64,000 nucleotides of DNA from Glaucostegus cemiculus (lineage: Eukaryota): assembly GCA_976551045.1 (NCBI GenBank), contig CDPCPM010000074.1, forward strand, positions 7,502,001 to 7,566,000, read 5' to 3'. The first letter of the stretch is position 1. Each line of letters begins with the position of its first letter. Positions 12,306 to 61,702 of the stretch are shown piece after piece. Under the pieces are notes generated by a model that made no database searches, had not been told where the DNA came from, and saw nothing but the letters and a program-made list of their open reading frames with translations. A program made the position numbers and the translations under genes.

Positions 12306-12364
12306 GTGGTAGAAGGTTCTTTTGGGGGGGGGGGGGGGGGGGGGGTGGTGGGGGAGGTGAACAC

Positions 12365-13545: not shown

Positions 13546-13549
13546 AAGA

Positions 13550-31194: not shown

Positions 31195-31280
31195 AAAAAA
31201 TCAGAAAATGCTGGAAATGCTCAGTGGGCCAGGCAGCATCTCTGGAAAGAAATGGAGTTGACGTGTCAAATCTGAGATTA
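31195..31280 (-). mobile_element. Penelope-like 3'-terminal fragment
   Basis: aaaatgctggaaatgctcagtgggccaggcagcatctctggaaagaaa...gttgacgt. Confidence 0.6.
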
Positions 31281-31293
31281 TGACCAGCAGAAT

Positions 31294-38217: not shown

Positions 38218-38254
38218 TTTAAACCCACTGCCAGCTTTAAACCCACTGCCAGCT
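38218..38254. repeat. Perfect 18-bp tandem duplication
   Basis: tttaaacccactgccagc x2. Confidence 0.9.
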
Positions 38255-39939: not shown

Positions 39940-40900
39940 TCCACTCTCTGGGATCTGGGCATTAATGGCAAAGCCAGCAATTTCTCATTCCTAATTGCCT
40001 TTGAGAAGGTGAGCTGCTTTCTTGAACTACTGCAGTTGGTGTTTCCCATGGTGCTCTCAGCCAGGATTGGGACCCAGTGATGAAGGAATGGGGGACATAT
40101 CTCCAAGTGAGGAGGGCCTGTCACTTGCAGGGGAGCATACAAATGATGACATACCATGTTTGTGGTAAAGCTGCTGGTATGGTTGAAGTTGGAGTAGCCT
40201 AGGTAAGTAACAGCAGTGGATTTTGTAGATAATGCAGACAAGATGACACTCGGTCACTACACCAGTGGTGGAGGGAATAGATGTTTAATGGGGTGTCAAT
40301 CAATTGATTACTGGATGGTGTAGAGCTGTTAGGGTTGGAGCTCTACTCATCCAGACAACTGAAGATCTTTCCATTGCGCTCTTGATTTCCACCTTGTGGA
40401 TGGTAGAAAGGCTTTGGATAGTGGGAGAAGAGTTGCTCATTGTAGGATAGCCTGTCTCTGCTTTTGTTGCCACATTATTGCTGTGGCCAGTTCAGATGAG
40501 TTTCTTGTCAATGGTGACCCCCAGCATGCTGATGGTGTGGGACATGTCTTTGACATTCAACATTATCACCAACACTAAGTGGTTACATCTGTTTGGAGCT
40601 GGTCCCTGCCTGGCACATTTTTGGCACTGAAGTTGCTTCCCATTTATCAACCTATGACTGCATGTTGTCTGTGTCTTGCTACAAGTAATGCAGTGTCTGC
40701 TGAGGAACTGCAAGTGGAATTAAATATTGTGCCATTGTTAGCGAACATCCTCACTTCCCACCTTGTGATGAGATGAAGGTCATTGAAGAAAGTGCTGAAG
40801 ATGGTTTAGGCTAAGAGCTCACTCCTGAGGCTTGGATGATTGAACTAAGAAAGCATAACCTTTGTCGATTTTGTGTGTGGCATGACTCCAACTACTGAAG
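39940..40900 (-). mobile_element. Non-LTR retrotransposon RT C-terminal remnant
   Basis: Minus-strand SHTISMLGVTIDKKL followed by a decayed post-RT region. Clade not assigned. Confidence 0.65.
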
Positions 40901-42821
40901 TGTTTCACTTGCAGCACTATGCTCCTTTATGTCATAAGTGCTGCTGTTATCAGAAATTATTTTGGTCAGTAACATTATTTTGGTGTTAAACATTTTTACT
41001 CTATCATGATTCTATTGGACACCCACATAATGTGGTGTGCTCACTTCTCAAATAGTAACAGTTTCACAGAACTTCAGTTTTAACCAAGAGTTTAGGGATA
41101 GTTAATGTGCTGCCCTTGTAAGTAAACATCTACCTTTCGATGTATATTTGCTGTGTTTCAAACATTCCTGAAGATGTTATGTGATCCTTTAAAGATTTTT
41201 GCCTGTAGTCACACTGGCTACAGTGCCCTTGTCTCCATCTTCAGTACCTTCAATGACTGTCTGCCCATTCCAAGGTTAGAGAGGATGTTCACTGATTGCA
41301 AATGCTCAGTCCACACTAGTTCCATGCTGTGGAGGTTTAATATCATTTGTCTACTGATGTGCTTGTAGGAAAATAATTTTGTCTAATTAGTGGGTTGGTA
41401 TGATTTACACTGTAACTTCCTTAATAAAGGCTTTTGTGTTCAGTGGATTAAGTACAATGTGCAATCCAGGCGAAGGAATGGAGGGATTTTTCCTTCCCAA
41501 ATCATTGAGTTGCTCTATTTGGACACTCACTTCCAAATAAGTGACCATTGAAGTCTGACCCTTTCTTCAAAGAAATATCTTGAGTCAGGGATTGTGCACT
41601 TTGGCTGTTGATCTATTAACAAAGGCCACCTCAGTGGACTCTCAGCCCATGTTGATGCAGTGACCAAATAGCAAGGTACAAGAGTTTGTTGTGGTGTTTT
41701 AGCCTTGAGGAATGATTCTTTTGTCTAGAATAGATGGCAAGGTTATTCTGAGATTACAAAGTTCGGGGAGATCAGTAAATGACAATGTTGGATGTGGCAG
41801 GTAACTTTTACCTACCTCATTCCACTGTTGATGCACTTTTGTCAGTCTCATCTGTTTCTTTTGTTTCCTAATGTGTCATATTTGAAAATTATTAATATTT
41901 TGTTTTTGTCCATTTGTAAGTTTTACAAAAGCTGAGATGAAAACCACCTCCCTTTTGCTGTTCTCATTTTAAATTAATGAAAGTTATTATTTTTTGGAAG
42001 GCTTGTTTTAAGACAACTCATTTTACTTTTCAGGGATAGGTTCATTCCTTTAGATTGAGAATCTTGTTTTTCAAGGAATGTATCATGCTTTTTTACTTGA
42101 CTACCCAAATGAACGTGATAGTTTTAAGTCTTAATCTTGGTGCAAATGATCTTTGTCTTAACCTTGATTCTTCTCCCCAGATAAAACTTAAGGTATTGCA
42201 CCATAAACTTGTATTTCAGTAGGATTAAATACTTCCAGTTAATTATATCTTCATGTCATATTTGGCATACCAACTAGTAAAAGTAAGTTTATTATGACTA
42301 CAGGCATAAGAAATAGCTGTGAAAATCTTGCAGTCTAAGAACAAGAGATTGGCTCATTAAAATAGTTTTTTTTGGAGTGTTGAATTGCAGGTGGTGCTTG
42401 ACAGGGTAGGTGGATTGTTTTGGATGCTCTCCTTTCTCTTGCTGTTTGTACACTAACTCTGTGTGCTTCCATTATAGAAACTGTTTTGGTGCTTTCCCAG
42501 ATGCTCCTTTCCCATTTGTCAACTATCGACCCCTGGTTGAATGGAAGTTTCCATCAGTTCCATTTTGGTAAAATTGAAACCATCCTTTTGGTCTCCTGCC
42601 AGTAAATGAATGCCTCCTGGCCCTTGCTCCATCAACATCGGTGGTTAGCACCATAAACAACTGCTGGAGGAGTGGAATTTTGGCACTATCTAATCCTGCA
42701 GTTCCTCCTGTTCCAAGCTCTGGGTGCCAGAACTTTTTTCCTTTTTCTCCTTAATCATTTCTCAAGCCCATCCTTTCATGTTACCCACCAGTGCTGAAAA
42801 TTTAAGTGGCCCTCACCTCAG

Positions 42822-43605
42822 TTATACAGCATGAAAACATGCCTTTTGGACTAATTAACACTATTACACCACCAGTGACCTGGGTTCAATTCTGGCTGCT
42901 GTCTGTAAGGAGTTTGCATGTTCTCCCTGTGTCTGTGTGGGTTCCCTCCAGTTTCCTCCCACATTCCAAAGATGTATGGGTTAAGAAATTATGGGTATGG
43001 TATATCAGCACTGGAAGTGTGGCGATACTAGTGTTCTGCCCTCAGAACATTCTATACAGAAGATGCATTTCACTGTGTTTCAATATACATGTGACTAATA
43101 AAGATCTCTCTTATAATTGGTCCGTGCTGACCAAGATTCCTATCTAAGCTAGTCCCATATCCCTCTTAAACCCTTACTCTCCATGTAACTACCCAAGTGC
43201 CTTTTTAATTGTTAATGTACTCCCCTCAACCACTTCCTGTGGCAACTCATTCCACATACCACCTTCTGTGTGGGGGGGAAGTTGCCCCTCGGGATCCTAT
43301 TAAATCTCTCCCCTCAAACCTGTGCCCTCCAGTTCTTGATTCCCTGACCCTGGGGAAAAAGACTGCATTTGCCCTATCTATTGCCCCCCACCATGATTTT
43401 GTACACCTCCTATAAGATTACCCCTCATTTTCTTGCACTCCAGTGAAAAAAGATCCAACCTGCTCAACCTCTTCATAACTGTCCCTTGAGTTCCAGCAAC
43501 ATCTTAGTAAACCTTCTCTGCACTCTTTCCAGTCTAATGGTATCTTTCCTACAGTAGGGCAACCAAAACTGAACACAGTATTCCAAATATAGCCTCCCCA
43601 CACCT
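42822..43605 (-). mobile_element. CR1 3' portion interrupted by a V-SINE
   Basis: The minus strand at about 43490-43590 reads LEYCVQFWLPYCRKDTIRLERVQRRFTKML. Tail pieces at 42822-42855 and from 43115 onward. Confidence 0.8.
42858..43110 (+). mobile_element. V-SINE, subfamily with a non-CR1 tail
   Basis: gggttcaattc B box, V-domain, tail catttcactgtgtttcaatatacatgtgactaataaagatct. Confidence 0.8.
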
Positions 43606-44329
43606 GAAGGTTAATCTTTTCACTGTCCTCCTTTTCTGGCCTTCCTCCAACCTCCATAGACTCTCCCATAGTCCTACTGACCAACTGTGGTCAATTTTCT
43701 CTGCCTCTATTGTGAAAATTCTCATTGCTTTCATGACCCTGTTCTGTTGAGGTCTACTTGAATAAGTACTATTTGGGTTTCTAAGTGAATTACTCATTCC
43801 TTGGTGGGTTGATTCTATTCATCAATATAATTTCACATCCTGAATAAACAGTTCAAATATTCAAGTCATGATCCAGAAATGTGAGTGCAGAATCCAGGTT
43901 AAAGCTTTGGTGTACTGTTTGTGGGAGTGCTGCATAGGTGTGAAAACTGTCTCCTTTTTGCCCTCCTTGGGAAGACCCAATTTCTCCCATGATGCAGTTT
44001 AAGATTAGAGGGTTCTCCAGTTGCCTTACTCAACCTATATTAGTCAGCCAACAGAAATCAAAATTATTCTCATTACATGCATCAGAGTAGTTACTAACAG
44101 CAATGCTCCAGCTAATAAGTTGGTTATGGACTGGAGCTTGTATTTTGCAGCAGATTGTCTATTATTCAGCAAATAAAATGTGTTTGGACTGATAGAAATG
44201 ACCTTTTCCAAGTACTAGTGTGGCGATTTCTGCAGAAAGTTGTGGAGGATATTTACAGCTAAATTATGATGAAATTTCTCTAGGTTACTTGCAACGGGCC
44301 ACCATACTTGAATGGGGGAGTTACTCGAT

Positions 44330-44505
44330 TGCCACTCTTCCTGCAAAAGGCATTCTGCTCTATGTAGGTTTGCTCCATTGTTGTGGGATGCTCTTGTGGT
44401 TACAATGGCTTCCACTTTGTTAGTGATTATGTTTTGTAAATACTTCCTTAATGCACTCAACAGCTGCATTTTTAATTGGTGCTGTATAAAGGAAAGTTCC
44501 CTCAT
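44330..44505 (+). mobile_element. DeuSINE remnant
   Basis: tgctccattgttgtgggatgctcttgtggttacaatggcttccactttg...gtgctgtataaaggaaagtt. Confidence 0.4.
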
Positions 44506-44814
44506 TCTTTAACTGGGTTAATCTCAGTGAATCATTGTTCACTTCTGCTTCAGATCTGTTGCTCATGGCAAGGTTGCACAGTGAAATGACTCTTCCAATT
44601 CACCAGAGATCTACTACTCTTATTCCTAACTCCACCCATCATTTCATTGCAATTTATTTTTAACTTTTAAAAATAACCCACAAACTTTTAATCATGCCAG
44701 CCTTCTGCAAAGCCTTCAGTATAACTTTGATACAAGTTTTCAAATAAATACCATCTCATTCCTCCCTTTGCCGAAGATTTGTCACTAATTACAACTGCCT
44801 ATTACAATTGTCAC

Positions 44815-45050
44815 TAACGGCCACTGCCTGTAAGGAGTTTGTACGTTCTCCCCGTGTCTGTGTGGGTTTCCTCCAAGTGCTTGAGTTTCCTCCCACATTC
44901 CAAAGACGTACAGGTTAGGAAGTTATGGGCATGCTATATTGGCACCAGAAGCATGGCAGCACTTGCAGGCTGCCCCCCCCAAAAAATTACTACACACAAA
45001 ATGTATTTCACTGTTTTGATGTACATGTGACAAATAAAGATCTTATCTTA
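44815..45050 (+). mobile_element. 5'-truncated V-SINE (same subfamily as 42858-43110)
   Basis: tgtaaggagtttgtacgttctccccgtgtctgtgtgggtttcctcc...gtacatgtgacaaataaagatct. Confidence 0.8.
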
Positions 45051-46599
45051 ACTGCAATGATACAATTCTGTTAATTACTCTGTGCCACACTCACATTACA
45101 ACAGGAGCCACATTGGCTGAATAACTTATTGGAAATGTTTCCACTAGTGCCACTTGACTGTTATTGTGATCATTCAGTACTAAGTTTACAACCAGATTTG
45201 CAGGTCTTGCTTTAAAGATGAATAACAAGCCCCAGGAGAGGGAAAACATTTGAAACTTTTTTCTGTAATATATTACTTTTGGTTCTCCATAATTTCGGAC
45301 AAAACAGGCATGCCAGACTCCTCCATTGAGGACATGTTTTTGTAGTTCTGTAGTAATAGTGGGCTTTGCCCTTCCTTTCGCAGGACGACAGCTTCCTCCG
45401 ATGTAGGGGTTTCCTGTGGAATGTAGTTAAGCCCTACTGTAAAGGAAATGTTTCATTTTAGTTAGCTGCATGCTGTTCACTAAAGGTCTTTGTAGGGCAG
45501 GCTTTTTTCTAGATTTCTTCAATTGCATCTCCAACCACAATGAAAACTTTGTATTCTGGTGTTTTCTTTCTAGTTTGCAGAACAGTTTGCTAATGAAATA
45601 GTTAGCAAGTACTTTCTTATAGGCAACCAGCCAACAAAGTAAATTGATGTAAAGCTGCCTTGAATAAATGAGCCTGCATCTTCTGCAGAAGCTCCCAGTG
45701 AAAATTTCTGCTAGAATGAGAGCTTAAAGCAACCATCATTGTTATCAAATCATTGAATATACAGGTTTATGTGTAATGAAATTGGCCTTCAAAGTTGCTG
45801 TGATATTTCAATTGATAAACCTATTAAGGCTGATTTTTCTGCCAGAATTGTCCTGACAGCCTTTAACTTTGGCACATGGAATGGCAAGGAAATCACAAAT
45901 GACAGAAACACATGTGTCTGATTAAGTCATAATTTTAACATATTAATGTATTCACCAAAATTTGTAGCAGCTTGTAGCGTAAGATGACCCTGTGAAGTAA
46001 AGTCAATGTTTGTGCTTTCAGTGAGGATGTGCCTAAAAGGTATGTGAGTTGCCAAATCAACACAGCTGTACCTTTTTTAACATCAGTGGGTAACTCAGTG
46101 AGGGTATTGGGAGAACTAAATTTATCTTTGTGTTTCAGGATATTGTAACATAACAGTAAATTAGAATCTGTATAGATCCTATTTCTACAAAAATGCTTGG
46201 GAGGGCATTTTGGTTTCATTGTTTTGTACTTGGATAAAAGTATGATGAGCTTGCCGGTGCAGTGCAATTGGAGTAGAATAAGCAAGATGCACAAGGTTTA
46301 AGTAGTTCTTAACATCACTCAATGATTCATAATTTTTTGTCTCAACAGTTGGTCAGCATTGGAATCTATGTTCTTAACCTATATCACCAATCTTTAACTG
46401 GAGGGATGTATCTTGTGTGACTGGGGGGTAGTGGTGGCAAGGAGGTGCAAGGTGGTGACATTTATAACCATAGTGGTGATTTGAAGCACTGACATTGTCA
46501 ATAGACAAAGTGGTGGCTGGCCCATTTGAGTACCAGGAAGTATGGGGAGCAAAGGTACTGACCAAAACTCCGTACAAGAAGATTTGATTTGTCCCTATA

Positions 46600-46905
46600 T
46601 GCATTCTTTGGCTGAGGACCACTTACTGGGTTCATTGTACACAATGTGACCTCTATGTTGGAGACCTCAAAAGCAGATGGGGTGATGGTTTGCAAGCACT
46701 TGTGCCCAGTCTGCATGAGTGTTTCTGAGATTTGAGTTACTTGCAATTTTAATTTGCCATCCCATTCCAACTCTAATTTCTTTCTGTGGCCTCCTGCACA
46801 CTTACAGTGAGGTGCAATATAACCTTGAGGAACAACATCTCACTTTTCATCTCGACGCATTGTAGCCTGCGGGGCTCCATTGAACTCTCCAACTTCAGAT
46901 AACTT
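46600..46905 (+). mobile_element. Older Penelope-like GIY-YIG fragment
   Basis: YWVHCTQCDLYVGD, then ggcctcctgcac...cttgaggaacaacatctcactttt...attgaactctccaacttcagataa, parallel to 12880-13147. Confidence 0.7.
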
Positions 46906-47119
46906 GCTCTCTTCTGTCTGTATCAGGACTGGCCACTTTTGCTTGCTGTCCTTCTCCTCATGCCTCTGGGATTAACTGCCACAAACTATAACTATCATCC
47001 ATTCTGAGAGGAATGACACCAACTATTGGAGATTCCCCCTTGTCGTCCCCCCCCCCCCCATACACTTTTTACCAAGGCCCTTTGCACTCTATCAGATGCT
47101 ACCCTGATATTGAAAATAA

Positions 47120-48830
47120 TTGCTGTCACCTTGCCTCTGGAATTTGGCTGTTTGGTCCTTGTTTTGAACTGAGGCAGGATGAGATCTGGGGTTGAGTGGT
47201 CTTGGGGGAAACATAAACTGGGTTATTGGCAAATGAGTGCCACTAGATAACACACTGAAGATACTTTGCTGATTGAAGGTAGACTGAGCAGTAATTAACC
47301 AGATTTAATTTGTCAGACTCTTTGTGAAGGTGTACATCACATTGTCAGGTAGATGACAATGTTGTTACTGTACCAGAATAGCTTGATTAACTACAGTCAG
47401 TGCTGGTCTTTAGTATTACAGTTGTATTTTTTTTGTGGTCCCATTGTCTTTGCTGTATCTAGAGTCTTTGTTTCTTGTAATCACTTAATGAATTGAATTA
47501 ATTGAAGACTGGAATTTGGTGAGGAATTTGGAAGAGCTGAGATGGTTCATCCATTTGGTATTTCTGGCAGAATATTGTTACCAATACTTTAGCCTTGTCT
47601 TTAGTACTCACATGCAGGGCCCCATCAAGGATGGAGATGTTCTACTCCTACTCTTATGACTGGAGTGCAGAAGTTTGAACTACTGTCTGATTGTTTGGCT
47701 CTATTCATTGACTGCTGCTTAGCTTCACTAGTTGGCACCTAATGCTGCTCCTGTCATGCATGCCTTTGGCTTGATATTGGTGATTAGACCAAGGGATCTG
47801 CTGGGCCATATTGTTACCATATTGTGGTAACTTTGTTTCTGTTGATGGTCTGCAACATCTCATAGATGCCCAATTTTAGGATGAATGTAGTGCCACAAAG
47901 CATAGATGGGGACCTTGTCACCACACAGTGATCACTTTTCCCAATGCTGGTGTGGATGGGTAGATTGGAAAAGTTGGGTAGGTTTGTACCTCAGCTGGTT
48001 TGATCACCATCTTCTGCATATCCAAACCTGGCAGGCAAGCTTTTCTGGACTTGACCTGCCTAGTTAGTGGCAGTGCCACCAAACCAGTATTGGTGACGGA
48101 TATTGTGCACTGTGGGGAACTTCATTTTGTGCTCTTGCAGCATTTTGCTTCTTCCACATGCTCATAAGGAAGAGTATTGATTCATCAGCTGAGAAAGAGT
48201 TGTAGATGGTGGTAGAGATTTCCTTGCTCTTTTGATCAGATACCATAAGACTAGGGATACATGAATGATAGAAAAATAGGGAGCTATGTGGGAGGGAAGG
48301 GTTAGATAGATCGTAGAGCAAGATAAAACATCAGGTTATAAACCTTGTGGGCTGAAGGGCCTGTACTTTGCTGTAATGTTCTAGGGGGTTTGCAGTCAAT
48401 GATGACTCAGGATTACTTCCTCTTTTATACCATGATGCTGCCAAATCTGGTGGGTCTGCCCTGCTGCTGTGATAAGATGTACCCAGGGATAATGTGATGG
48501 AGAAGTCCGGCATGTTGTCTAAAAGAATGACTCAGAGGATGATTATTGGACTGTTGCTTTACTAGCCTGTGGGACAGTTGTCCCAATTTGGACGCCAGTT
48601 CCAGATGCTTCAGAGGAGAATTTTTTAAAAGTTGACTGGGCTTGGAAATGAGTGTCCAGATTTGGTGTGTAGGCCAATGCTGTGTTCAATATGATTTTTT
48701 TTCTCTGTTTCAACACCACGGTTGTGATACAGTCGTGCTACTTGCTTGGGCATTTAAGAGTCAACCACCTTGTTGGGTTGGTAGTCACCCATAGGGAAGA
48801 CTAGGTAAGGATGGCAGATTTTCTCCACTT
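47120..48830 (-). mobile_element. Highly decayed LINE remnant with a nested + strand CR1 tail at about 48250-48383
   Basis: A CR1 tail (gggagggaagggttagatagat...gggctgaagggcctgtactttgctgtaatgttcta) is clear. The surrounding LINE call is weaker. Confidence 0.45.
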
Positions 48831-49224
48831 AAGGACATTGCTGCAAAAATTCATCAGCTTCACCAATCTGGTAGTTTTGTGGCCAGCATTGCTGGTTTGT
48901 TTCTATTTCAGAGCAATGGCCAGCCAGCTGTTGCAGAAATTTATTTGGCTGTTTTAAATATGAAAATGCAGTATTTTCAATGTAAGAATCTTTAGCATAA
49001 TTAACTCTCCTGATAGTACACAATCCAAAATAAGATTGGAAAACTAACAAGTGACTCTTAATAGTTTTGTCCTTGCCTGTTTTATAATGTGTAGACTTGG
49101 GTTTTCCTGTTTCAGTAAATATCGATTTGAAATTATGATGAATAGTTAAGGGAATCATTTTGAAATGTGGGAGTTAAAGGTAGTCAATGATTTTGCATGG
49201 TCATTGTTGTGAGAAATCAACATG

Positions 49225-49935
49225 ACTGTCACGTGACAGCAGTGACACTGACCCCCGCTGACCAGAGGACAGTATTGCTCTTTCTAATCTGAAGTCATCC
49301 TCCTGTCAATCAAGGTGCAGCTCCACCCACCCCTTAGGTGGGAGAGTATCCCTTGACCCCAAACCTGTCTAACCAGTTCTTTTGTCTTTGACCTCCTTTG
49401 ACCATTGGCTGTGGCAGAGGCTTTTGTCCTTGACCTGTCCACTATTGGCTCTTTCAAATGGTAACAGTAAGGCTCCACCCAGCCTTCCAGCACTATAAAA
49501 AGGACTGAGACCACAGCTCTTGCTCTTTCTACAACCTGGGAGTAGTGAGGTAACACTACAGAAACCTTCGGTAAGAGTGCGTCACCACATGGTCAAGGAG
49601 TGTTCCACTCAAACTCCGGGTAGTGTTAGAGCCAGTGCTAGGGTGGGCCCAGCACTGTAGTGTTATAGTCTGAAGTAGTATACTGTTACTTATTACCTGT
49701 GTGCATCAGCGTATGTGTGTTTATTTTACCCCTGTTGCGATCCCTCTCTCGTGTCTCGCGGGTATCCAAGTGTGTGTGTGTGTGTGTGTGTGAGTGAATG
49801 TACCCCCGTTCCCGTCCATCCTGCCCTGCGTTCTGTGTCTGTAGCTTATAATAAAGTTCTCTTTGTTAGTAAACCAAACGGTGTCCAGAATTCTTAATAC
49901 CCCCAAGACCCACATGAACCATTTCCGGGAACAGT
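49225..49935 (+). mobile_element. Solo LTR (ERV/Gypsy-like), about 0.71 kb
   Basis: TGT (49227)...ACA (49933), U3 direct repeats with ATTGG boxes, TATAAAA 49494-49500, a (TG)n tract at 49771-49792 and AATAAA 49850-49855. GC and CpG content are higher than in the flanks. Confidence 0.8.
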
Positions 49936-50140
49936 CATGCTTAACTAAGTTGGATCTTTATAAGGAGGTCAATGACGTAGTGAGTAAGGGTTGGACAATG
50001 GATGTTATATAGCTGAATTTCAAAAGTCACATACTGTTTGACATAAAAGGCTATTGCATAATTTTTGGATCTGATGGCAAGCTTTTAGTCCATGCACATG
50101 GGTAGTTGCTGATATGATGGAGTGTTTAGGGATTTTTTAT
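49936..50140 (+). mobile_element. CR1 reverse-transcriptase fragment (host of the LTR)
   Basis: SCLTKLDLYKEVNDVVSKGWTMDVI*LNFKS resembles CR1 SCLTNLxxFFEEVTxxVDxGxxVDVIYLDFxK. Confidence 0.65.
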
Positions 50141-52245
50141 TTAGGGCTGATTTGGAGGATGATTGTATTAAGATTGCAGTAGTTTGGAGAACCTGGTTCC
50201 AGAGAAGTTTTTATAGCAGTGCATGAAATTCGAGAACAGTGGCCCAGAAATCCATACTAATTTGACTATGTACTGAAATGGCAGTGTGCAGTGGATCTAT
50301 ACTGGCTTTGCACAAGTCCACATAGGATCAGTTTTCTTGCATGCTCAATAGTTTGCACATTGCATATCAAAATTTTGATTGCTGCAGGTTGCAGCAATGA
50401 GGTTCATTGGCTTTAAAGTTTGATCGCCATCTATAATGGGAGCCTTTTTAAAGTGAATTTCTAAATGTGAACAATTGCTTCAAGGACTGAGGCATTTCTG
50501 GATGTGTGGGAGATGGGAGCAGGCACCATGCATCGCTAGACATTGTCCTGTCAGAGGTGAACATCGTGGCTTTCCTTGGGTGGTTCCCTCCCACCACCCC
50601 TTTGCCCCAACACCAGAAGATTTTGCCTGTGATATAGAGGATATTAGAACCATCCATGAGGAATCCAGGGCTTGCTTCAGTGGTTTGGTGAAAGTGGTTC
50701 TGTTGTGACTGTGCCCTCTAATTTGTGCTGGACAAGGCCTTGCACTCTTAAGACTCCATGTAGTTTCATGTTTTAACAAGTTCTAGTTTTTAATTTCAGG
50801 ATATGATTTGTAATTCAATTTTTTTCCTAAATTAGCTGTTAGAGTAAATTTTGGCCAGATCAGTAAACCTTGCAATTAACATACCAAAGTTTGACATTTG
50901 CTACTCTAAAGAAAACATCCAAAACTGAGAGCGGTCTGATATAGTTCTTTACCCTACAAGTCTAGTGACTATTTAGACAGAAGTAATAGTAAAATCATAC
51001 ACCTTTTTTTATACTGCACATTTTCCTCAGCAGTTTACTGATTGCCCGTAATCACTACCTCATTTATTTCCATATTTTGTTTCAATAGTTCTCACTTAGT
51101 ACTGAGAAATTGCTTATTCCTATGAAAATGAGATCCATTTTCTAATCCAGTCAAATAATTTGTATGAATTTTCATTTGCATATTTTTAAAAAAAGCTTGA
51201 GTGAACAAATGGAAAAATGTCCTGACTGTGTGCAATTGCTACTAGCCCAAGTGTGATTTTTAAAACGACCACACCACCTCCCACAATCAAAGGCTGGGCA
51301 TGGCTGTTCAATAACTAAAGGGAATTTGAAAGGACTGATAGGAAAGACATGGGAATTAATGAGCATAGGTTTGCCAATCCTTCAGGATCGACCTAGCATT
51401 CCCAGCAATTGAACAGTTGGAAAAATAAACATCCTTTTTTTTCTCTTCAAGCTCTTTCATTTCTCAAGAATAAAAAGCCAATTTGGAAGTAAACAGTGAA
51501 AAGGCAGTGATGTGGGGAAGGAACCAATGGCAGGAGTGTGGGCTTGGGCTGGTAATGCTAGAAAGTTGAGTGTTGATGCCTCAAGGATGGCCACACTTAC
51601 AGAATCTGTGCAGACCAAATAGCAAACTCCACACGACTGGTGTCGCTTCCCAGTGGCAAAGATTTTGGTAATTTTTCTGTTGGCTACTTTTTCAACTTGC
51701 TAATGTTAACTGAAATGCAAATGTGCTTAGATTGTTTTAGATTAGTCATAGATTCTTGTCTCTAACATAATTTGTGTATGGGTTTATGCAAGACTTTAAT
51801 TTTGCTGGCTTTTACATGGGTATGTATGTAGCATTTTGAGCAAATTGGATGCATGCATATTAAGATTTATTGGGATGTGGGGGGAATCTGGCTGTTTTGC
51901 CTTGTACGTGCTCCTGATTTTTGCTTTGGAATAATGTGGTTTAGATAGCCTGTAGTTTAAGTTAAATTATAGTATTTGAATAATTATTTCTAATGTCTAT
52001 GTTAACTTGTCATGAAACTAGGCTTTTTGTGCCCAGTTAAGATTATACATACTTTCCAAAGACACTAGCTTTCATTAGAATTGTAGTTTGGGAGATGTGG
52101 ATCAAGTGGGACGGTACAAAAGCTGAGATTCCAAATTCTATTACAATGTTTTCTCAGCATCTTGTATAGTCCTTATTCAGTGCACTATTAAATGTGTCTC
52201 TGCAGACGAGCTTCTCTGTGTAATCTTGTGAACTGGGGAAACAAA

Positions 52246-52585
52246 TGGGCAGCACAGTGGTGTGGCTAGTAGAGCTGCTGCCTCAGCTCCAGTGACTGGA
52301 GTTCAATCCTGGCTTTTCGGTGCTGTTTGTTTGGAGTTTGCACATTCTGACTGTGGATTTCCTCCAGGTGCTCTGGTTTCCTTCCACACCCCAAGATGTG
52401 TGGATTATTTGGTTAATTCGCATTGTCAACTGCTCCTAGTGTGAGTGGTAGAATCTGGGGTGGGGGTAGCCTGGGGGAGTTGGATGAGAATGTGGGGAAA
52501 TAAAGAAAATGGGATTGGTGTTAAATGGGTGCTCGATGGTCAGTGCTGATTTGGTGGGGCCGAGGACCTCCATCTATGCTCACTG
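52246..52585 (+). mobile_element. V-SINE (HE1-like), older copy
   Basis: gggcagcacagtggtgtggctagtagagctgctgcctca, gagttcaatcc, V-domain, CR1-like tail gggccgaggacct. Confidence 0.8.
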
Positions 52586-53199
52586 CCACTTATTCTTGGA
52601 ACTATGCTCCATTTCTTCTAAAGTATCACATTGTAAGGAAGTGGGGAAAGAAAGATTTAACCAATTCCTTCTACATCTAAAAATATAAATGGATATATTG
52701 ACATTCTTCTGTGTGGAAGGCTGGTCATGGTGTTGGATCCAGACATATCATTCTGACATTGGAATATTTGTTCATCACTTTGGCCTCCCCTGTGGCTTCT
52801 GCCATGAATATCCATGAATTCTTTTTAAAGCTTCTTTGTATAGTTTTGCAGATTTGCTTTGATGTAATTTCACTTTATCAGTCTGATTACAGCCATAGAC
52901 TCTCCTTTTTTTTTCCCCCCTACCCCTCAGATAACTAACACTAGAGACTTTTCCTCCTGTGAATCCTGATCCTGGTGACACTACCTATAGGCAGATGTGT
53001 GGTCAGCTGCCAGGTCTATATTGCTGGTACCTGTCTCTATGAAACCACTGCCTTTTGATCCTTCCACTGCATCTGTACTGTTGTCACTTGATCGGACGTC
53101 TTGCATAAGCTGGAATTCTCGGCAACATTAGGGCACCAAACACTGGGCACTTGAGTTCTGCAGTGTCTCTTATCTCTACTCCCTGTATTGGATGCTAGT

Positions 53200-53405
53200 T
53201 TTGTCACCATCGCATTTTGCTAACCCAAGTGGTGTTCAAGTTGGGTTCCCAGATCTTGTTCTTTGTAAGCTTCTACTCATTGGAAACTTCACAATCCATA
53301 TCCTGATTCTGCTTCTGCTATTTAAAACTCTCCTAATCAAGTTTAAGTCCTTTCATGAACTCTCCTCCATTCCGCTATCTGTCTCTAACCTCTGCCAGCT
53401 GTAAA
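53200..53405 (+). mobile_element. L2-like LINE 3' fragment
   Basis: FKTLLIKFKSFHELSSIPLSVSNLCQ resembles L2 FKILxLVFKSLHGLAPxYLxNLLQ. Confidence 0.4.
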
Positions 53406-53852
53406 CACCAAGCAGCCGGGGATTTGTGATCTCACGGACATTTGATCCAGTCCTCAGTTGCCTGAACCAAGGAAGTTTATAAATAAAGAAATGGAGCGAA
53501 TGATAGTAAAGAAAACTGGGTAAATTTAGAGTAGGTTTAGAAATGGGTGGAAAATAAGGTGAAGTAATGGAGAGGAAAAAGACGAAAGAGATAAACAAGA
53601 AAAGCAAATGTAAACAAACCTTGAGCTATTAATGGGAGTGATACTCTAAAGCTTCATTGTTCTCTTTCTGGGTTTCCAAGGTTGGATCGCATATCTGTAC
53701 TATAAATTACATGTACATGGTCATACCAGCCTTAAATGGCTGTGACCAGAATAACCTATCAAGAAGCAGATGGCTGCACTAAATGTAGCATGAGGTAATG
53801 GGTCAACAAAATGCTGGAGGAATTCTGGTCAGGCAGCATCTATGGAGAGAAA

Positions 53853-53890
53853 CAGATGACGTTTCAGGTTGAGACCTTTCATCAGGACTG
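53853..53890 (-). ncRNA. Minimal type I hammerhead ribozyme motif (Penelope-type)
   Basis: Reverse complement: CAGUC CUGAUGA A AGGU CUCA ACCU GAAAC GUC AUCUG. Core intact, 4-bp stem II, palindromic ACGU stem III, GUC triplet. Stem I has two inner mismatches. Confidence 0.65.
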
Positions 53891-53918
53891 ACGAAGGGTC
53901 GACCCGAAACGTTGACTG
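53883..53918 (+). ncRNA. Minimal type I hammerhead ribozyme motif (Penelope-type), sense to FOXO1 pre-mRNA
   Basis: CAGGA CUGACGA A GGG UCGA CCC GAAAC GUU GACUG. Core intact, GUU triplet, stem I partly mismatched. Confidence 0.6.
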
Positions 53919-54649
53919 TTTATTTCTCTCCATAGTTCCTCCAGCATTGTGTGCATTGCTCCAGGTTCCAGCATCTGCAAAATCTCTTGTATCTCTGACT
54001 AGTCAATGGGTTCCCACAACATCCTGTTCAGAGATTTTGTGTTGCAGCACTAAGTGTGCCTTTTTAACCAAGCTTTTTCCAATTCTTGCATCTGTCCAAC
54101 AAAGCAAAAAAACAAATTGCCCAACCAGGTTATACCTTTTAAAATCTCTCTCGTATCTTTGATCAGGGCATTTGCTGTCCTGCCAGTCAGCTCTCAATTT
54201 CTCAGTTAAGTGATGGGATTTGTCAATCATATTTTTAAGCAGCACTTGCTAATGCTCATTTTGGGTTCTGCAAGGATCACTTGCTTATTACTGTCTGGTC
54301 CAAAAGTTGCCAAGAGATTAGCTCTCACCATATCTATAGAACTAATGCTCTTGATACCAACTTATTTTGTATCAGTGTCCCATGAAGCAGCTCCCGTAAA
54401 AATGAGTTTTGTACTAAGTAAGCTTCCGGTAGTTGGAGCTGTGCCTCTCAGGAATGTCTGTAATTGTTGGAAGCTAGTCATCTCGGCCACAGAACCGTGC
54501 TTCTAGAGTATGTTGGATTCCTTATCTTCATCTGCTTCACTTCCCTCCAATATTAAGGTGAAGAGCATTTAGATGGATCGAAATGTGCAAAGCAGTTATC
54601 TTTATCCAACAAAAGGATGTCTAACCACCCAAGTTTGATACTCAGAAGT

Positions 54650-55300
54650 ATTATGATTATTGAATCTACTGCCATCAACTTTTTCTGCTCAACCATGATG
54701 GGCAACTTGGACCACCAATTTACAAGTCAATCAAAAGCTTAGGTACTCTGTGGCCAGTGACTCTTCTAATTCCCCAAAACATTCCTACCACTGAAAGCTA
54801 GAAGTCACAGGTCAAGAGTATGATGGAATACATCTCACATACTTTTGACTTCTGAAAAGCAGCAGCTTGATGCCTTTTTTTAGGGGCACAGCAGCCTACT
54901 TGTTTGGGATTTCAACCACCACATTTAACAATTCACACTCTACACCAGTACAGGTGGGCCATGCTTGCATTGTGTACCATTTACAAGATGTATTGTGACT
55001 CTTTAGTTCACCCTTTGATTGCACTTCCTGAACCTGTAACAACTACCTCCAGCAGGTGCATGGGAACACCAAGAACTGTTGGGTTCCCCTCCAAGTTATG
55101 CACAACCCATATTTAAAAATGTATTGCTGATCCTTTGGTACTACTTGTACCTGATCTTTTGAGCATTCAACTTGCAGCACCAGGAGAATCTTGCCAGAAG
55201 TGTTGCCTCCATTCAAGATGGCAACTCGCCTGCACCACCTGTGGGGCAGTTGAGATGGGCCTTAAATGTTGGCCTTGATGACAATGCTTGCAACCAGTGA
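54650..55300 (+). mobile_element. LINE 3' remnant (family of 39940-40900, opposite orientation)
   Basis: caggtcaagagtatgatggaatac (QVKSMMEY) and tail gggcagttgagatgggccttaaatgttggccttg. Confidence 0.6.
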
Positions 55301-56874
55301 TTAAATAATGTTAATCCAATAACTTCACGAGCCAATCAGGAAGCTCAATGAGTTTTGTTTCCCATTTTGGTCAATAATAATAGAGCAGTCCTAACACCCA
55401 ACAATTTGTGGTACCCTTTAGCTGCACAATAAATCCACTATAATTTTGTTTTAGCAGTTTGAGTTGATGTGACACCAGGTCACATTTCCTTGGTATTGGT
55501 CCTACCCAGAAATGTATGTTGTCATTTTGTTATCTTATGGAAAAGTCTGTGCATTTAAACCAGCCTCCCACTCCTTGCCCTATTGCTTAATTGGTGCATT
55601 CAGCACTTTGTATAACTAGTATCCTACTAGTCCATATCAATGTGATATTAATATGAAACCAGTTGATTGAACTGTATTCTGGTGATTGCTGCCTTAGTGT
55701 CTCCCTTCCAATTTACTAGATTATATACTGACTTTTAGACCAGGCACATTAGTGCAGATTACACAAAGAAAATCGCTTATTATTAAGATTGATGGATAAC
55801 ATTTATCGAGAACTGTAAGGTTACAGTTTTACTGAGCTGGGTTACTATAAAAAGACTATTGCTGATTGAGTTTAATAAGTCATAGGTAATACTTTAGCAG
55901 CTTAACAATCTTGTACAAGTAAAAAAAACAGTAAAATTAATGTGACAAACTGGAGATTCCATCGAATATTCTGCTGTTGATGATATAAGGTCAACATAAA
56001 TGTCAAACAGGATTATTTGGTAATGAAGTGTGTGAGGTATCTATAGGAAACAAAAGGGGAAACAGTGAAGTTGCCATGACAACAGACTTGTGACTTTTTG
56101 ATCTGTTCTGGAGGCACCAGAATGCAAGCACTTAATGCTTAGTGGTAATTTCATTTGTTGCATTTTGTACCCTTTTTACCGCAAAAATACTCAAGCCATA
56201 TTAAGGCCCTAGAATTGCCTTACTCTGACGTTGTGAGCAAAGTAGTGTTTGCTTTTCCAAATAAAAAGTACTATGTAAAATTTTTGAGCTTTCAATTGGT
56301 TTACTACCTTGCTACATCAGAGGTTGCTAGTTCACAATAGTTAATTTTGTCTGTTTTTTTTTATTGACTGCTATAGGCCAATGTTGGGGGTGATGGATAG
56401 TAGTCATTTGGATTGATCATTGGAAATGGTGTTTAACATTTTTTGCCTTAAAGGAACACCAATGGAATTATGTCATTTGAAATTGAGAATATCTTTTGAC
56501 CTTGTTTCACAGGAATAATACCTATTAAGATAGGTCTCATTCATTTTAGGGGGTTGAGAGACTGAGCACCATGCTGTTTCATAATAGCTGGAGCATTAGC
56601 TATCATTGTGATTAGTAGTGTACAATTTTGATCCCTTATCAGGAAGTTTTGTCTGGGCAATCCTTGACATCACTGAAATGTTAATATTGTTAACAGTGCA
56701 TTGACTGCTTAACTTGCATGAAAATTTCTGACTTTACACTAAGTGCACATGTTAACACAGACCATATGCATGCATTTGTGTAAGGATGTCAAAGTTGATG
56801 CTGTCTGTTCACATACTTGAATGAAATGTAAAGAATTCAGAAATAGCACTATTTAGTACCAAGAACCTTTTCCA

Positions 56875-57230
56875 AAAATCATTTATTATTGCTGACATAT
56901 GATGTGAAATTTATTGTTTTGCAGCAGAGTACATGCAAGACATAAATCTATAAATTACAAAAATAGTGCAAAAAGAAGCAATAATGAGGTAGTGTTCATA
57001 GACGGTTCAGAAATCTGGTGGAGGGGAAGAAGCTGTTCCTGAATCATTGAGTGTAAGTCTTCAGCTCCTCCCTGATGGTAGTAACGAGAAGAAGCAATGC
57101 CCCAGCTGGTGAGGGTCCTTAGTGATGGATGCTGCTGGCTTGATCCACTGTCTCTTGATGTCGGGGAGGATTGTACCCATGATGGACCTGGCTGAGTCTA
57201 TAATCCTCTGCTGCTTCTTGCAATCCTGAT
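56875..57230 (-). mobile_element. Rex1/Babar-like LINE 3' end
   Basis: aggtagtgttcat...ttcagaaatctg...ggaggggaagaagctgttcctgaatc...cctgatggtagtaacgagaag...gggtccttagtgatggatgctg. Confidence 0.6.
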
Positions 57231-60200
57231 GCACTGAAGTTTTGTATCCATGAAGGATTAACTATGACCTAAATTTTGCATACCTGTCTCAAAACATCCA
57301 GTACAGATTTTGATTTTGACTGGATAGTATGGATTGTCTTAACAACAAAATTCAATGGAATGCACAAAGAATATGGCCCTGAGACAAGGCCAACAGTCAC
57401 TACTTAACTAGGTGATCATAAGCATTACTGCTTTTGTCTAATATACTACTGTACATTGTGAAAACGCTTATTTTTTGTGCACTCTAGCATGTCAATTTCC
57501 AATTGATTTAAAATCATTTTGGCTCTACTATTTACCAGTGGGTAGCCCATGATTGTTGCTGAACCTCATCTTTTTGTGGATCAGCTATAGTTAACTTGTG
57601 CTCCCAAGCTGATCTGATCCTCATTTCTGTAAGAGAGCCCTGTGTAATCAATACCTTCACATGGGATGGAGGCTGTAGCAAATCCTATTTGCTAAATAGT
57701 TGAGGGGGGGAAAAAGCTTTTCATTAGTTGGTTCATCTTTGCCTCCTGATTTAGCCATCCATTAATTCTGTCAAAATCTTTTGGATGCCAGTGTAATGAA
57801 ATTGCTGCATCTTCAAGCTCTGTCAGACTCCACAACTCTATAAGCAGTCCAATTTCAGAGCAGAGTCAGGAAATTGTTAGCGAAGAGTGACAGAGTATGA
57901 GAGTTCCATTATTCACAAAAGGATCCTAAATTGTGGGGATAACATGATGAAATACTCAGGTTTTGTACAGAACATCCAGCCTTTCCCTGCAAGGTGTGGT
58001 TCTTTTATAGTTCTACTTGTGCATTGATAAGGCTTTGAATTAATTTTTTGTCCATCAAGGACATTTTGGGGTATTTCACATATAGATGATGCATCTAGTC
58101 AAACCATTTTAAGAGTAAACCTTGTTCCAGTATTGTATATAAGCCAGGGAGCTGGAAACACCTTTTATTGGAAGTCCCAGCTGTCTTGTGTGGAAGTTCA
58201 TAGTGAGTTGTGTATGTGTGGCAGAGTAATGTGTGAAAAGATTGTTTAGTGCCCAGAGAGGTGAGGGAAAAGTGCAAAAATTTGTCAGCATGTTTAACCC
58301 CCTTGCCAAGATCCTGTTTCACTTTGTATTTGTCTGGAGTTGCCAGCAGACACAACATCATTAACAGCAGGACATACTTTCATAAGATTAAGAGGTAATC
58401 ATTTTTTCCTCCCAGGCTGGTAAATTAGTGCTTCATTTATGGCTTGTGCTTCGCACGAAAAACAGGAATTTGTGTAGCAACCCTGCAGCCCTTTTCCTGT
58501 TGGGAAGAAAGACTTTATTGTTTGGCAACACCAGGAGACAGTGCTTTTAGCTGGAAGCATGACCTGAAAACTCACCCATTGATCTAACTGTTGCAGACAG
58601 AGCCAGGATCTCTGTAGGTGTCTTAATTGTTTTTATTAAAAAGTGAAGGGAGGCCCATATACACTATCAACAGCCAACTGCATGTAGATAAGGCAGTGAT
58701 GTTGTGACCTCAATGAATTTAATTCCATAAGCGACTAATTTAATGTCCTTGGTTCTGCCGCTAATGTTTATGTGAACAGTGGAACAAAAAAACAGTGGGA
58801 GCTGAGTAAAATGTTCTTTTCAAAATAACAGCCTTTTTTCAATGTCCTAACTTGAGTTTTCAGTAGTTGGGTATAACTTATCAGCAAGAAGGAAAGGAAA
58901 ATGATGTAATAAATGTTCCACGAGATGGTAATGTACATCAGTTGTGATTTTAAAAAAACATTTAGCAGAAACTTAAATACTTGGTCCCTGGTTAAACATT
59001 AATTCTCTATCTATCTGGTATTAAACAAACTGAAGTATTGCCTAAAGATTTGCAGATTGTTGTAGGTATGCTAGAAATGACCTGGATTTGTGATCAGTTC
59101 TATTTCAAGCTAAATTAATGGATATCGAATTTCTGCATTGACCAGCAATTAAGTTGATTTTTCAAATTTGTATCAATTTGCTTGCCTTCCTGCTGTTGCA
59201 GTCAAGACTCTACATTTTAGCAAATTTCAAGTTTTTGAACAAAACATTTTTTTTCTCTTCTTGGGGATAGACCATGATGTCTGTTTTTTGGTCATGCCTT
59301 TTTCTAGTTTGGGGCCAATAAAATAGAAACCCAAAGCTTATAAATTAATGCAGTTTATTATGCATTGAAAATCTTTCTGCTGGGTTACGATATAATTTTA
59401 AGGATGTTGTATATTATACCAGGAGCCCATTTTGCATAATTATGGTGCATCTTGTAGTGTGCAAATATAATTAACTACAAGCTGAGAACACAGGCATATG
59501 ACTATGAACGGTTCTGATTTGATTAGCTTTGATTGGTAGCAAGTTAACATTAGCTATAATCTTCTATCTTTACATGTACCCCCCCATACCTTTCCACTCA
59601 CTCTTCTGATATTCCCCCACACTGCCCCCCCTCAAATGCTACCCAACCATTTTGCCCAATAATTATTGATCTCCATTCCAGACACTGGTGGTATGTTGCT
59701 CGAAACCCATATTTCTATTGAGTGAGGGAAGTAAAGCAGACTGCACATCTCCACATTACCATTTGTAAGAGTTGAGCCAGAATGTTTTTGTAATAGTTTT
59801 GAGTTATTAATCATGGCAACCCATTATTACTAACTCTTTACATAGGTTGCTGAAGTATATTGGGTCACACTTAACTAGAATGGGATTAGATTTTTGTTGT
59901 TGTAATTAGCAGAATGTGAGTGTAATAGGCTGTTCTGTTTTTGAATTAATGCCACATTTTTGGTTCCAAAATACCTCGTACAGTACAAGTCTTGAAGCTA
60001 AATCTTCATTGTCTTGTAATCATGAAGTTGTGCTGTGATCAATGAGATTGTGCAAGCCTGCAGCTCTGTAGTGTAATAGTGCACACACTCTAGGTTTTGT
60101 TTCTAGTTGTGCCAGCTTGGCTTGCTGTAAAAATTGAATGAACAGAGCTGTACATGATAGTACCCCTGTGGTTTCTTGATTAAACTGAAACTATCCCCTC

Positions 60201-60364
60201 AGTTCCATTTACTGTTTTCCACCCCCCCACCACACCACCCAGTACCCTACCAGTTTAATTTACTTGGGAAGGAAATGCTTAGAACATTGGTTTGTGAAGC
60301 AAAGTATTAAAGCAGTGCACTGAAGCAGAATTTCTGACTTGGCTATATGTATTTTCTTTTGCAG

Positions 60365-61702
60365 AACTCAATCCGTCATAATCTGTCACTGCACAGCAAG
60401 TTTGTAAGAGTGCAGAATGAGGGAACTGGCAAGAGTTCCTGGTGGATGTTAAATCCTGAAGGGGGAAAGAGTGGAAAATCTCCAAGAAGAAGAGCAGCAT
60501 CTATGGATAACAATAGTAAGTTTGCTAAAAGCAGAGGAAGAGCAGCTAAGAAAAAAGCAGCACTTCAGGCAGGCCAAGACGGCAGTGCTGATAGTCCTGG
60601 AACACAGTTCTCAAAATGGCCTGGAAGTCCGAACTCCCACAGTAATGATGATTTTGATGCCTGGACCACCTTCAGAACGAGAACTGGTTCAAATGCTAGC
60701 ACATTAAGTGGAAGGCTCTCTCCTATTATGCCAGAACAGGAAGATATTGGCGATGGTGAGGTTCATCAAATGTCACCCTTAGTCTACCCTGGTAGCTCCA
60801 GTAAAATGGCATCAACACTACCGAGTCTAAGTGAGATGACTATGAACAATTCTATGACTGAAAATGTAATGGAAAATCTTTTGGACAATTTGAATCTTCT
60901 GTCCCCAAACTCATCACTGGTAGCATCTACCCAGCCTTCGTCAGTGTCACTAATGCAGCAAAGCTCTGGCTACTCGTTTGCACCCCAGAACACAGCCATT
61001 GGTTCACAGACCCCAGATTACAGAAAATGCCTCTATGCTCAAAGCAGTATGAATTCTCTACAGCAAATGCCTTTGCAGACCTTTCAAGACAAAAAACAGA
61101 ACTTTGGACAGATCACTCAATATAACTGTCCAACGGGGCTTCTTAAAGAGTTGCTAACTTCTGACTCACCTCCACACAGTGATATGTTACCACAAGTGGA
61201 TACTGTGGTATCACAAGCTAATGGTCGAATGGGCAGTCAAAGTATGATGATCCCCACAACAGTAATGTCCTCATATGCTAACCAGGGAGTTCACACCAAG
61301 TTGATGAACCCCAGCATCCAGCAGCATCCAGTACATAGCCAGCAGTCAGTTGCAATGAATGGCCGTGTCTTACCTCATACTGTGAGCATCATGACTCATC
61401 CTTCAAATATCCGACATCTCCCAGCTCAGAAAAACCAGTTACATGTGCCTATGTCTCTGCAACTTAATGCAATGGATCCGTATTCTATTAATAGTAATGG
61501 AGGCTATGGAAGAATGAATATTGCTGCTGTGAATCAAGAGAAGCTCCCTAGTGACTTGGACGATATGTTCATTGAAAGCCTGGACTGTGATGTTGAGTCT
61601 ATTATTCGTAATGACCTTATGGATGGTGATACTCTAGACTTTAACTTTGACTGCTATTCAAACAGTTCAAAAGCACCCACACACAGCTGGGTATCTGGCT
61701 AA
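60365..61702 (+). CDS. FOXO1: Forkhead box protein O1, coding exon 2 (445 codons + TAA)
   Basis: [49 protein letters not shown] (S256 equivalent), RTRTGSNAS (S319 equivalent), [26 protein letters not shown]3 [23 protein letters not shown], and the FOXO1-type end THSWVSG*. Confidence 0.97.

What the first reader, a model, noticed from the sequence alone, without database searches (positions are those of the whole stretch)
53805..53995. Fold-back mini-element with overlapping hammerhead-ribozyme cores on both strands, inside FOXO1 intron 1
Seen: an imperfect palindrome of about 190 bp whose centre carries CUGANGA-stem II-GAAAC-NUH on the minus strand (53853-53890, GUC) and on the plus strand (53883-53918, GUU). 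The two motifs overlap at 53883-53890. Each has an extra A after A9 and an ACGU palindromic stem III. Known: Penelope-like elements carry minimal type I hammerheads in their terminal repeats, thought to cleave as dimers, and non-autonomous hammerhead-bearing retrozymes exist. Inference: this may belong to a non-autonomous, ambisense-hammerhead element family in cartilaginous fish, an architecture that recalls viroid-like RNAs. Similar fold-backs occur at 24015-24130 and, weakly, 28170-28270. Caveats: stem I is mismatched in both motifs, and the long hairpin would compete with ribozyme folding.
Basis: partly seen in the sequence, partly recalled or inferred. Interest (0 to 1): 0.75.

Follow-up and report, generated by a model that had tools for sequence, protein, structure and literature searches.

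The report
Minimal Penelope fold-back with overlapping hammerheads
This 190-base hairpin in a shark-or-ray FOXO1 intron is two back-to-back copies of the end of a very abundant repeat, likely an old, dead insertion of a Penelope-like jumping gene whose two self-cutting-RNA motifs are predicted not to fold; the same back-to-back join also turns up in unrelated animal-like DNA, which may point to a preferred turning point when these elements insert.

Summary
In detail: a strong hairpin (z -7.1) with two minimal hammerhead cores overlapping at 53883-53890. Both arms are copies of the 3' end of a repeat present on thousands of contigs per run. A longer fold-back of the same repeat in the window carries a GIY-YIG-like remnant. 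Head-to-head arms, a one-sided tail and a palindrome at the join are published Penelope-like-element (PLE) features, as are opposite-strand hammerhead pairs. The scan has reported similar fold-backs in other shark-like genomes. A dedicated ambisense family is not supported: most copies run on into ordinary upstream sequence, listed joints differ, the cores are not better conserved than flanks (p 0.18), stem I is broken in both motifs, and the hairpin is favoured by 16-26 kcal/mol. One hammerhead per strand cannot release a circle. One lead remains: the same two-base-spacer overlap occurs at 21 distinct fold-back loci of 16 arm types in metagenome DNA. Only that spacer was searched, so a junction hotspot is suggested, not shown.

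The parts
53806..53890 (-). Left arm: inverted, tail-less copy of the 3' end of the PLE pseudo-LTR; its 5' end is the 5' edge of hammerhead stem I
   Evidence: Aligns with seven other arm copies in the window; loose ends before 53806 mark the family's tail-less end
53883..53952 (+). Right arm: forward copy of the same 3' end, with a 2-base deletion in stem II and a deletion of about 20 bases after 53935
   Evidence: loose ends at 53899, 53934 and 53935. Arms differ at 10 of 66 aligned columns
53953..53996 (+). One-sided 44-base tail
   Evidence: Matches the tail of the forward copy at about 13500-13543; highest depth; a one-sided 30-40-bp tail is described for PLEs
53883..53890 (.). Inversion junction: 8-base quasi-palindrome CAG-NN-CTG shared by both arms (3 exact bases of microhomology), leaving the two cores 2 bases apart
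   Evidence: Sequence; the family's ordinary upstream context from loose-end lines before 53899
53853..53890 (-). Minimal type I hammerhead motif, GUC site after 53858; stem I reduced to 3 distal pairs by mutation
53883..53918 (+). Minimal type I hammerhead motif, GUU site after 53913; 5' strand of stem I borrowed from the other arm, 3 distal pairs only; 3-bp stem II
53790..53803 (+). Possible decayed target-site duplication, left copy (10 of 14 identical to 53998-54011; weak)
   Evidence: 7.3% of 3000 random position pairs score as well
53998..54011 (+). Possible decayed target-site duplication, right copy
11671..13543 (.). Longer fold-back of the same repeat: inverted tail-less arm, forward arm with frameshifted GIY-YIG-like remnant and tail; internal comparison
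24024..24110 (.). Short fold-back of the same repeat; left arm ends at the same stem I edge, right arm starts about 70 bases further on; core broken
28168..28275 (.). Decayed short fold-back of the same repeat with a different centre; core broken
1553..61702 (+). Host gene FOXO1: coding exon 1 from about 1553, exon 2 from about 60365; the element lies in the 58-kb intron 1

Best explanation
The element is two head-to-head copies of a very abundant repeat end, likely a single old and dead insertion of a Penelope-like retroelement cut short on both arms, and its two hammerhead motifs are likely passengers that are predicted not to fold. Shown: arm identity, abundance, one-sided tail, junction sequence, decay. 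Inferred mechanism: the element's reverse transcriptase-endonuclease nicked both target strands and primed two short cDNAs on uncleaved RNA, one from the tail end and one from the tail-less end. Both stopped at the 5' edge of the hammerhead, and their ends annealed over the CAG-NN-CTG quasi-palindrome before gap filling. Self-priming at the palindrome, or a later deletion of a longer centre, would leave the same sequence. In FOXO1 pre-mRNA it would form an inert hairpin.
For: 2939, 2319, 10157 and 6869 contigs lay on the stretch; summed depth is thousands to hundreds of thousands on the arms against 0-54 on the flanks. Loose ends before 53899 (51, 40, 138, 159 contigs) and behind 53891 (104, 97) continue into ordinary upstream repeat sequence. 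The same repeat ends a 1.87-kb fold-back with a GIY-YIG-like remnant (skate protein hit E 2e-8). Inverted 5'-truncated copies, one-sided tails, overlap of the inverted and direct pLTR and palindromes at the inverted junction are described. Dual min-HHRs 100-700 bp apart on opposite strands are described. An anole PLE protein nicks and extends both strands, starts at two sites that define the tail, and uses uncleaved RNA. Both arms run past the cleavage site through the core, which fits an uncleaved template. Decay: 10 of 66 columns differ plus deletions; no significant core conservation. Folding gap 21.5 (+) and 25.5 (-) kcal/mol, 16-26 in nascent RNA. Flank contigs of two other species, 4-5% diverged, run 27-33 bases into both ends, so the insertion likely predates their split.
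Against: No genome was available, so copies could not be counted or aligned in full. Three contigs in one run cross the centre at about 80-83% likeness. The other two short fold-backs in the window fit 'same junction, then deletion' as well as 'different junction'. All 11 core positions are intact in both arms, and the right arm keeps 4 CpG in 65 bases against an intron observed/expected of 0.17. The PLE protein evidence is moderate: no Pfam hit on four remnant pieces, Atlas score 0.90, GIY-YIG in the skate hit below the curated cut-off. The target-site duplication is weak. The steps of the mechanism were not tested here.
Confidence: 0.82

Rival explanations
1. Same origin, but the join is a preferred turning point: PLE copying or resolution tends to turn round at the 5' edge of the hammerhead core, so minimal double-hammerhead palindromes arise again and again in unrelated animals. 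This is compatible with the best explanation and adds to it.
For: A metagenome scan for two cores 2 bases apart gave 33 hits. They reduce to 24 distinct loci; 21 are fold-backs with arms of 41-113 bases at 86-98% identity (one further-reaching perfect palindrome among the 21 may be an assembly artefact), in 16 arm types. Three show a one-sided tail and a flanking direct repeat. Three carry the core-to-stem-I sequence printed for an Acropora Neptune PLE. The 24024 copy's left arm ends at the same base as ours. Three shark-run contigs cross the centre.
Against: Only spacer 2 was searched in metagenomes, so there is no denominator. L019 holds a second opposite-strand pair about 125 bases apart. 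The variable-spacer scans of viral and prokaryote collections held no animal PLE DNA (0 of 102). CAG two bases before the core is not general among the 56 published examples. In the host species none of 14 listed arm pieces crosses the centre.
Confidence: 0.35
2. The element belongs to a replicating non-autonomous family with hammerheads on both strands, spread by PLE proteins in trans, possibly through circular RNA.
For: Both cores are intact; 3 contigs cross the centre; some metagenome arm types have 2-3 loci with the same centre; nonautonomous PLE derivatives and retrozymes exist.
Against: Most copies do not share the centre and listed joints vary. No tandem repeat, and one motif per strand cannot cut out a unit. 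Stem I is broken and stem II pairing probability rounds to 0 in the window and in all 45 strands tested across loci. In metagenome loci each pair of arms is its own sequence type, which fits separate origins; in the coral-like set the centre lies in both orientations relative to the tail and tail-less arm lengths differ.
Confidence: 0.08
3. The insertion has been kept by the host for a role in FOXO1 pre-mRNA, as a double-stranded substrate for editing or small-RNA processing, or as a slow intronic ribozyme.
For: Likely shared by three species; strong hairpin; intact cores and CpG retention on the sense-strand arm.
Against: Old repeats are shared among related species without selection (general knowledge). 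Core conservation is not significant. Deletions in both arms. Only sub-threshold miRNA-model matches, as any hairpin gives. The orthologous centre could not be read.
Confidence: 0.06

Closest known systems
Insertions of endonuclease-bearing Penelope-like elements with an inverted 5'-truncated copy and a one-sided 30-40-bp tail (Craig et al. 2021, PMC8557442, passages; Arkhipova et al. 2013, PMC3846280, passages)
   Same: Head-to-head arms, tail on one arm, overlap or palindrome at the inverted junction (15-bp overlap in Pen2a_Av), microhomology deletions
   Different: Here both arms are cut to under 120 bases, no coding sequence is left, and the join falls on the hammerhead core
Minimal hammerheads of metazoan PLEs (Cervera and De la Pena 2014, PMC4209133; parts 1-2 of 4 and most of supplementary file 2 read)
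   Same: CUGANGAH core with the extra base after A9, G10.1-C11.1 pair, GAAA, palindromic stem III, NUH; dual motifs on opposite strands reported in Schistosoma and a wasp bracovirus PLE
   Different: Published pairs lie 100-700 bp or more apart; here the cores are 2 bases apart and share stem I letters. No cartilaginous fish among their 56 examples
Poseidon element of Anolis carolinensis, PAc (Frangieh et al. 2024, PMC11167929; parts 1-2 of 4 read)
   Same: Two reverse-transcription start sites define the tail; both strands nicked and extended; uncleaved RNA is the main template
   Different: That work does not address inverted junctions in the parts read; the clade of the shark element was not determined
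Non-LTR retrozymes (Cervera and De la Pena 2020, PMC7229834, passages; Li et al. 2026 preprint 10.64898/2026.07.22.740005, part 1 of 5 and passages)
   Same: Short, non-coding, hammerhead-bearing, PLE-related
   Different: Retrozymes are head-to-tail tandem units with one motif per unit that release monomers and circles; this is one inverted pair with no tandem unit
Viroid-like circular RNAs with ribozymes in both polarities (Lee et al. preprint 10.1101/2022.07.19.500677, passages)
   Same: A ribozyme motif on each strand within a rod-like fold
   Different: Those are circular RNA replicons; this is a linear genomic palindrome whose second motif is simply the mirror copy of the first

Membership tests
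Penelope-like element insertion | Sequence belongs to the terminal repeat of an element with a C-terminal GIY-YIG endonuclease | tested here: met
   Same repeat ends the 11671-13543 element, whose remnant matches GIY-YIG-like proteins; moderate strength, no Pfam hit on the remnant itself
Penelope-like element insertion | Telomerase-like reverse transcriptase of a PLE clade | not testable with these tools
   No RT-coding part of the element lies in the window and no genome is held
Penelope-like element insertion | Inverted 5'-truncated copy with a one-sided tail | tested here: met
Penelope-like element insertion | Minimal type I hammerhead in the pLTR | tested here: met
Penelope-like element insertion | Target-site duplication (optional in PLEs) | tested here: inconclusive
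   10 of 14, reached by 7.3% of random pairs
Active minimal hammerhead ribozyme | Intact catalytic core and NUH site | tested here: met
   Both strands
Active minimal hammerhead ribozyme | Stem I closed next to the core | tested here: not met
   Two proximal mismatches on each strand
Active minimal hammerhead ribozyme | Fold accessible in context | tested here: not met
   Predicted gap 16-26 kcal/mol; stem II probability rounds to 0
Active minimal hammerhead ribozyme | Self-cleavage as monomer or dimer | not testable with these tools
   Needs an assay
Non-LTR retrozyme | Head-to-tail tandem units, each with a hammerhead on the same strand | tested here: not met
   No such array in 52000-56000; one motif per strand
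Non-LTR retrozyme | Expressed as linear and circular monomer RNA | not testable with these tools
   No RNA run was available
Non-autonomous mini-element family | Many copies share centre, ends and diagnostic changes | tested here: inconclusive
   Mostly against: 3 of 26 listed pieces cross the centre, none in the host species; joints vary; listings are cut
Viroid-like ambisense ribozyme RNA | Circular or multimeric RNA with a working ribozyme in each polarity | tested here: not met
   Linear genomic palindrome with no terminal redundancy; both motifs predicted masked

The most novel reading that the evidence does not exclude
PLE insertion has a conserved turning point at the 5' edge of the hammerhead core, so that sharks or rays, corals and other animals each make minimal palindromes of about 200 bases with two overlapping hammerheads, a tail and a target-site duplication; some may be re-mobilised as MITE-like units. 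This would tie the ribozyme fold, rather than its cleavage, to where reverse transcription stops or turns.
Probability: 0.35. Interest if true: 0.55.

Novelty: new member of a known kind. Interest (0 to 1): 0.27.

Why it matters
As a single locus it matters little: it is a fossil of a described insertion pattern. The role of PLE hammerheads and the origin of PLE inverted junctions are both open questions in the papers read. If junctions pile up two bases from the core across phyla, that gives a cheap, countable signature that separates twin priming from self-priming and suggests the ribozyme structure shapes insertions. It also warns that 'ribozymes on both strands' in animal DNA or contigs can be a mirror by-product and not a viroid-like trait.

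Tried and rejected
No genome is held for the window, so no genome-wide count. No RNA holder listed; this says nothing on expression. Rfam gave no hammerhead hit at E up to 10. An arm motif found 0 loci in viral, metagenome and prokaryote collections. A junction motif in viral contigs gave 2 unrelated hairpins. Variable-spacer scans of viral and prokaryote collections gave 102 hits, none an animal PLE fold-back, so they do not serve as the missing control. The records behind five metagenome loci are not held for further search. Pfam and solved-structure searches did not recognise the endonuclease remnant; the second Atlas search was below 0.9. I considered that the CAG before the core is a conserved splice acceptor that explains the join: the shark context looks like one (pyrimidine tract plus CAG), but the published examples do not share it, so it stays a guess. 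Assembly artefact was considered for the metagenome palindromes: 8 loci recur in a second assembly and arms are not identical; L025 (100% over 300 bases) may be one. Rows dropped before the count of 21: 8 duplicate loci, L008 (other end of L004), and 3 non-fold-back loci (L006, L015/L032, L028). Lunse et al. 2017 is not held; only its title was seen. The PAc supplement held no searchable sequence.

Full report
Observation. The sequence is as described. The plus strand folds into one long hairpin at -79.4 kcal/mol, z -7.12, with 0 of 200 shuffles as stable. A scan of both strands of the window found 2 hammerhead cores with a stem II, both here; 100 shuffles gave 0.41 per window and none with the ACGU-H ending. 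The extra base after A9, the G-C pair at the base of stem II and the palindromic stem III are the published consensus of PLE minimal hammerheads. The host gene is FOXO1, on the plus strand, and the element lies in intron 1.

Anatomy. The left arm (53806-53890, minus) and right arm (53883-53952, plus) are two copies of the same sequence, meeting at their 5' ends. Only the right arm continues into a 44-base tail. The arms differ at 10 of 66 aligned columns, with 23 gap columns. Six more copies of this sequence lie in the window. One ends a 1.87-kb fold-back at 11671-13543 with the same plan: a tail-less inverted arm, a forward arm with a tail, and arms that differ at 87 of 496 columns. Its forward arm carries a frameshifted remnant whose first Atlas hit is a eukaryotic GIY-YIG cluster (0.90; 21% of members carry the family) and whose C-terminal piece matches a skate protein at E 2e-8. 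That protein has a weak GIY-YIG match (E 0.008, below cut-off). Pfam did not recognise four remnant pieces. I take this as moderate protein evidence, backed by the architecture, for a Penelope-like element.

Abundance and junctions. Contigs of four runs from three coded organisms were laid on 53400-54400 at 80% likeness: 2939, 2319, 10157 and 6869 lay there, nearly all on the element. Loose ends before 53899 (51, 40, 138, 159 contigs) and behind 53891 (104 and 97 in two runs) continue into the repeat's ordinary upstream sequence. Of 32 pieces listed (22678 not shown), 6 are flanks; of the other 26, 22 lie on the left arm and stop at 53881-53892, 1 lies on the right arm, and 3 cross the centre. 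The 15 joints shown of 52 are short inverted arrangements with differing break points, each on 1-3 contigs per run. So short fold-backs are common and varied, and this centre recurs but is a minority. The listings are cut, so no rate can be given.

Age. In two other species, flank contigs 4-5% diverged run 30-33 bases into the left arm and 27 into the tail. The insertion therefore likely predates their split; the overlap is at the limit of what the tool counts as bridging. A 14-base flanking repeat matches at 10 positions, which 7.3% of random pairs reach.

Can the ribozymes work? Both cores are intact, but this is not significant against the arm divergence (0 of 11 against 8 of 50, p 0.18), even before allowing for the locus having been picked for that reason. 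The other six window copies have damaged or missing cores or stem III. On each strand the two stem I pairs next to the core are mismatched: on the minus strand by mutation, on the plus strand because its 5' strand is borrowed from the other arm. Forcing stems I and II costs 21.5 (+) and 25.5 (-) kcal/mol, and 16-26 in RNA that ends just after the motif. On both strands the mirror copy is transcribed first, so co-transcriptional folding would not rescue them. There is no tandem unit, and one motif per strand cannot release a monomer. These are predictions; cleavage was not assayed.

Mechanism (inferred). The family's upstream context makes CAG-NN-CTG a quasi-palindrome at the core's 5' edge, and the join lies on it with 3 exact shared bases. 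A PLE protein from the anole nicks and extends both strands, starts at two sites that delimit the tail, and mainly copies uncleaved RNA. Two short cDNAs, one from each site, joined at this microhomology would give exactly this structure. Both arms include the core upstream of the cleavage site, which fits an uncleaved template. Self-priming at a palindrome, proposed by Arkhipova et al. from the abundance of palindromes at inverted junctions, or later deletion of a longer centre, cannot be told apart here.

An unexpected lead. A metagenome scan for two cores back to back with a 2-base spacer gave 33 hits. Eight are duplicates and L004 and L008 are two ends of one locus, leaving 24. Three are not fold-backs. 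The other 21 are, in 16 arm types at 85% identity; L025 may be an artefact. L005, L010 and L017 show a one-sided tail and a flanking direct repeat. L005, L018 and L029 carry the core-to-stem-I sequence printed for an Acropora Neptune PLE. The rest are AT-rich with a stem III of the 2-base-insertion type described for fly, rotifer, shrimp and mosquito PLEs; their hosts were not determined. In all 45 strands tested, including the window's two, the first stem II pair has a predicted probability that rounds to 0. The geometry thus arises separately in many PLE types. Against a hotspot: only this spacer was searched; L019 also holds a pair about 125 bases apart; the control scans held no animal DNA; and CAG before the core is not general.

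What is known. Inverted truncated copies with a one-sided tail, overlap and palindromes at the junction, and dual opposite-strand min-HHRs are in print. Retrozymes are tandem and viroid-like RNAs are circular replicons; this element meets neither definition. I found no paper on overlapping cores at the junction in ten searches of the open library; subscription papers, Repbase and Dfam were not searchable, Lunse et al. 2017 is not held, one supplementary file of Cervera 2014 could not be searched and the 2026 preprint's supplements were not seen. Earlier notes of this scan describe similar fold-backs in other shark-like genomes (21 findings in at least 4 genomes), none indexed with overlapping cores.

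Verdict. A real, old, minimal Penelope fold-back with passenger hammerheads: a new member of a known kind, interest 0.27. The junction-hotspot reading is open at about 0.35.

Noticed in passing
window 11671-13543: 1.87-kb PLE fold-back with nested inverted segments, a GIY-YIG-like remnant, a 226-base piece at 12639-12864 that also occurs at 63161-63393 (84%), and a 7-of-7 flanking direct repeat.
   Followed up: partly
window 11144-11250, 31205-31268, 5815-5835: Further single arms of the same repeat; about eight arm copies in 58 kb of intron.
   Followed up: partly
window 53888-53952: The right arm keeps 4 CpG in 65 bases (observed/expected 1.09) while the left arm keeps 1 in 85 and the intron is at 0.17; unexplained, small numbers.
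   Followed up: no
family context before 53888 (loose-end lines): A pyrimidine tract plus CAG two bases before the core looks like a 3' splice site; in Drosophila virilis Penelope an intron ends at helix I.
   Followed up: partly
L019 215-425: A second opposite-strand hammerhead pair of another sequence type, cores about 125 bases apart with an unrelated spacer, 200 bases from the overlapping pair.
   Followed up: partly
L137 (Agromyces sp. contig): Inverted repeat whose arms carry CUGACGA and whose 21-base centre holds a GAAA-bearing small hairpin; possibly a bacterial hammerhead-like or REP-like element.
   Followed up: no
window 31318-31449, 42858-43107, 44824-45043: Three copies of another short repeat, SINE-like in size; also 21183-21324, 32869-33012 and 63144-63190.
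   Followed up: no
P0001: The skate protein joins an RVT_1 part and a GIY-YIG-like part in the order RT-then-EN within 236 residues; it may be a gene model across two repeats.
   Followed up: no
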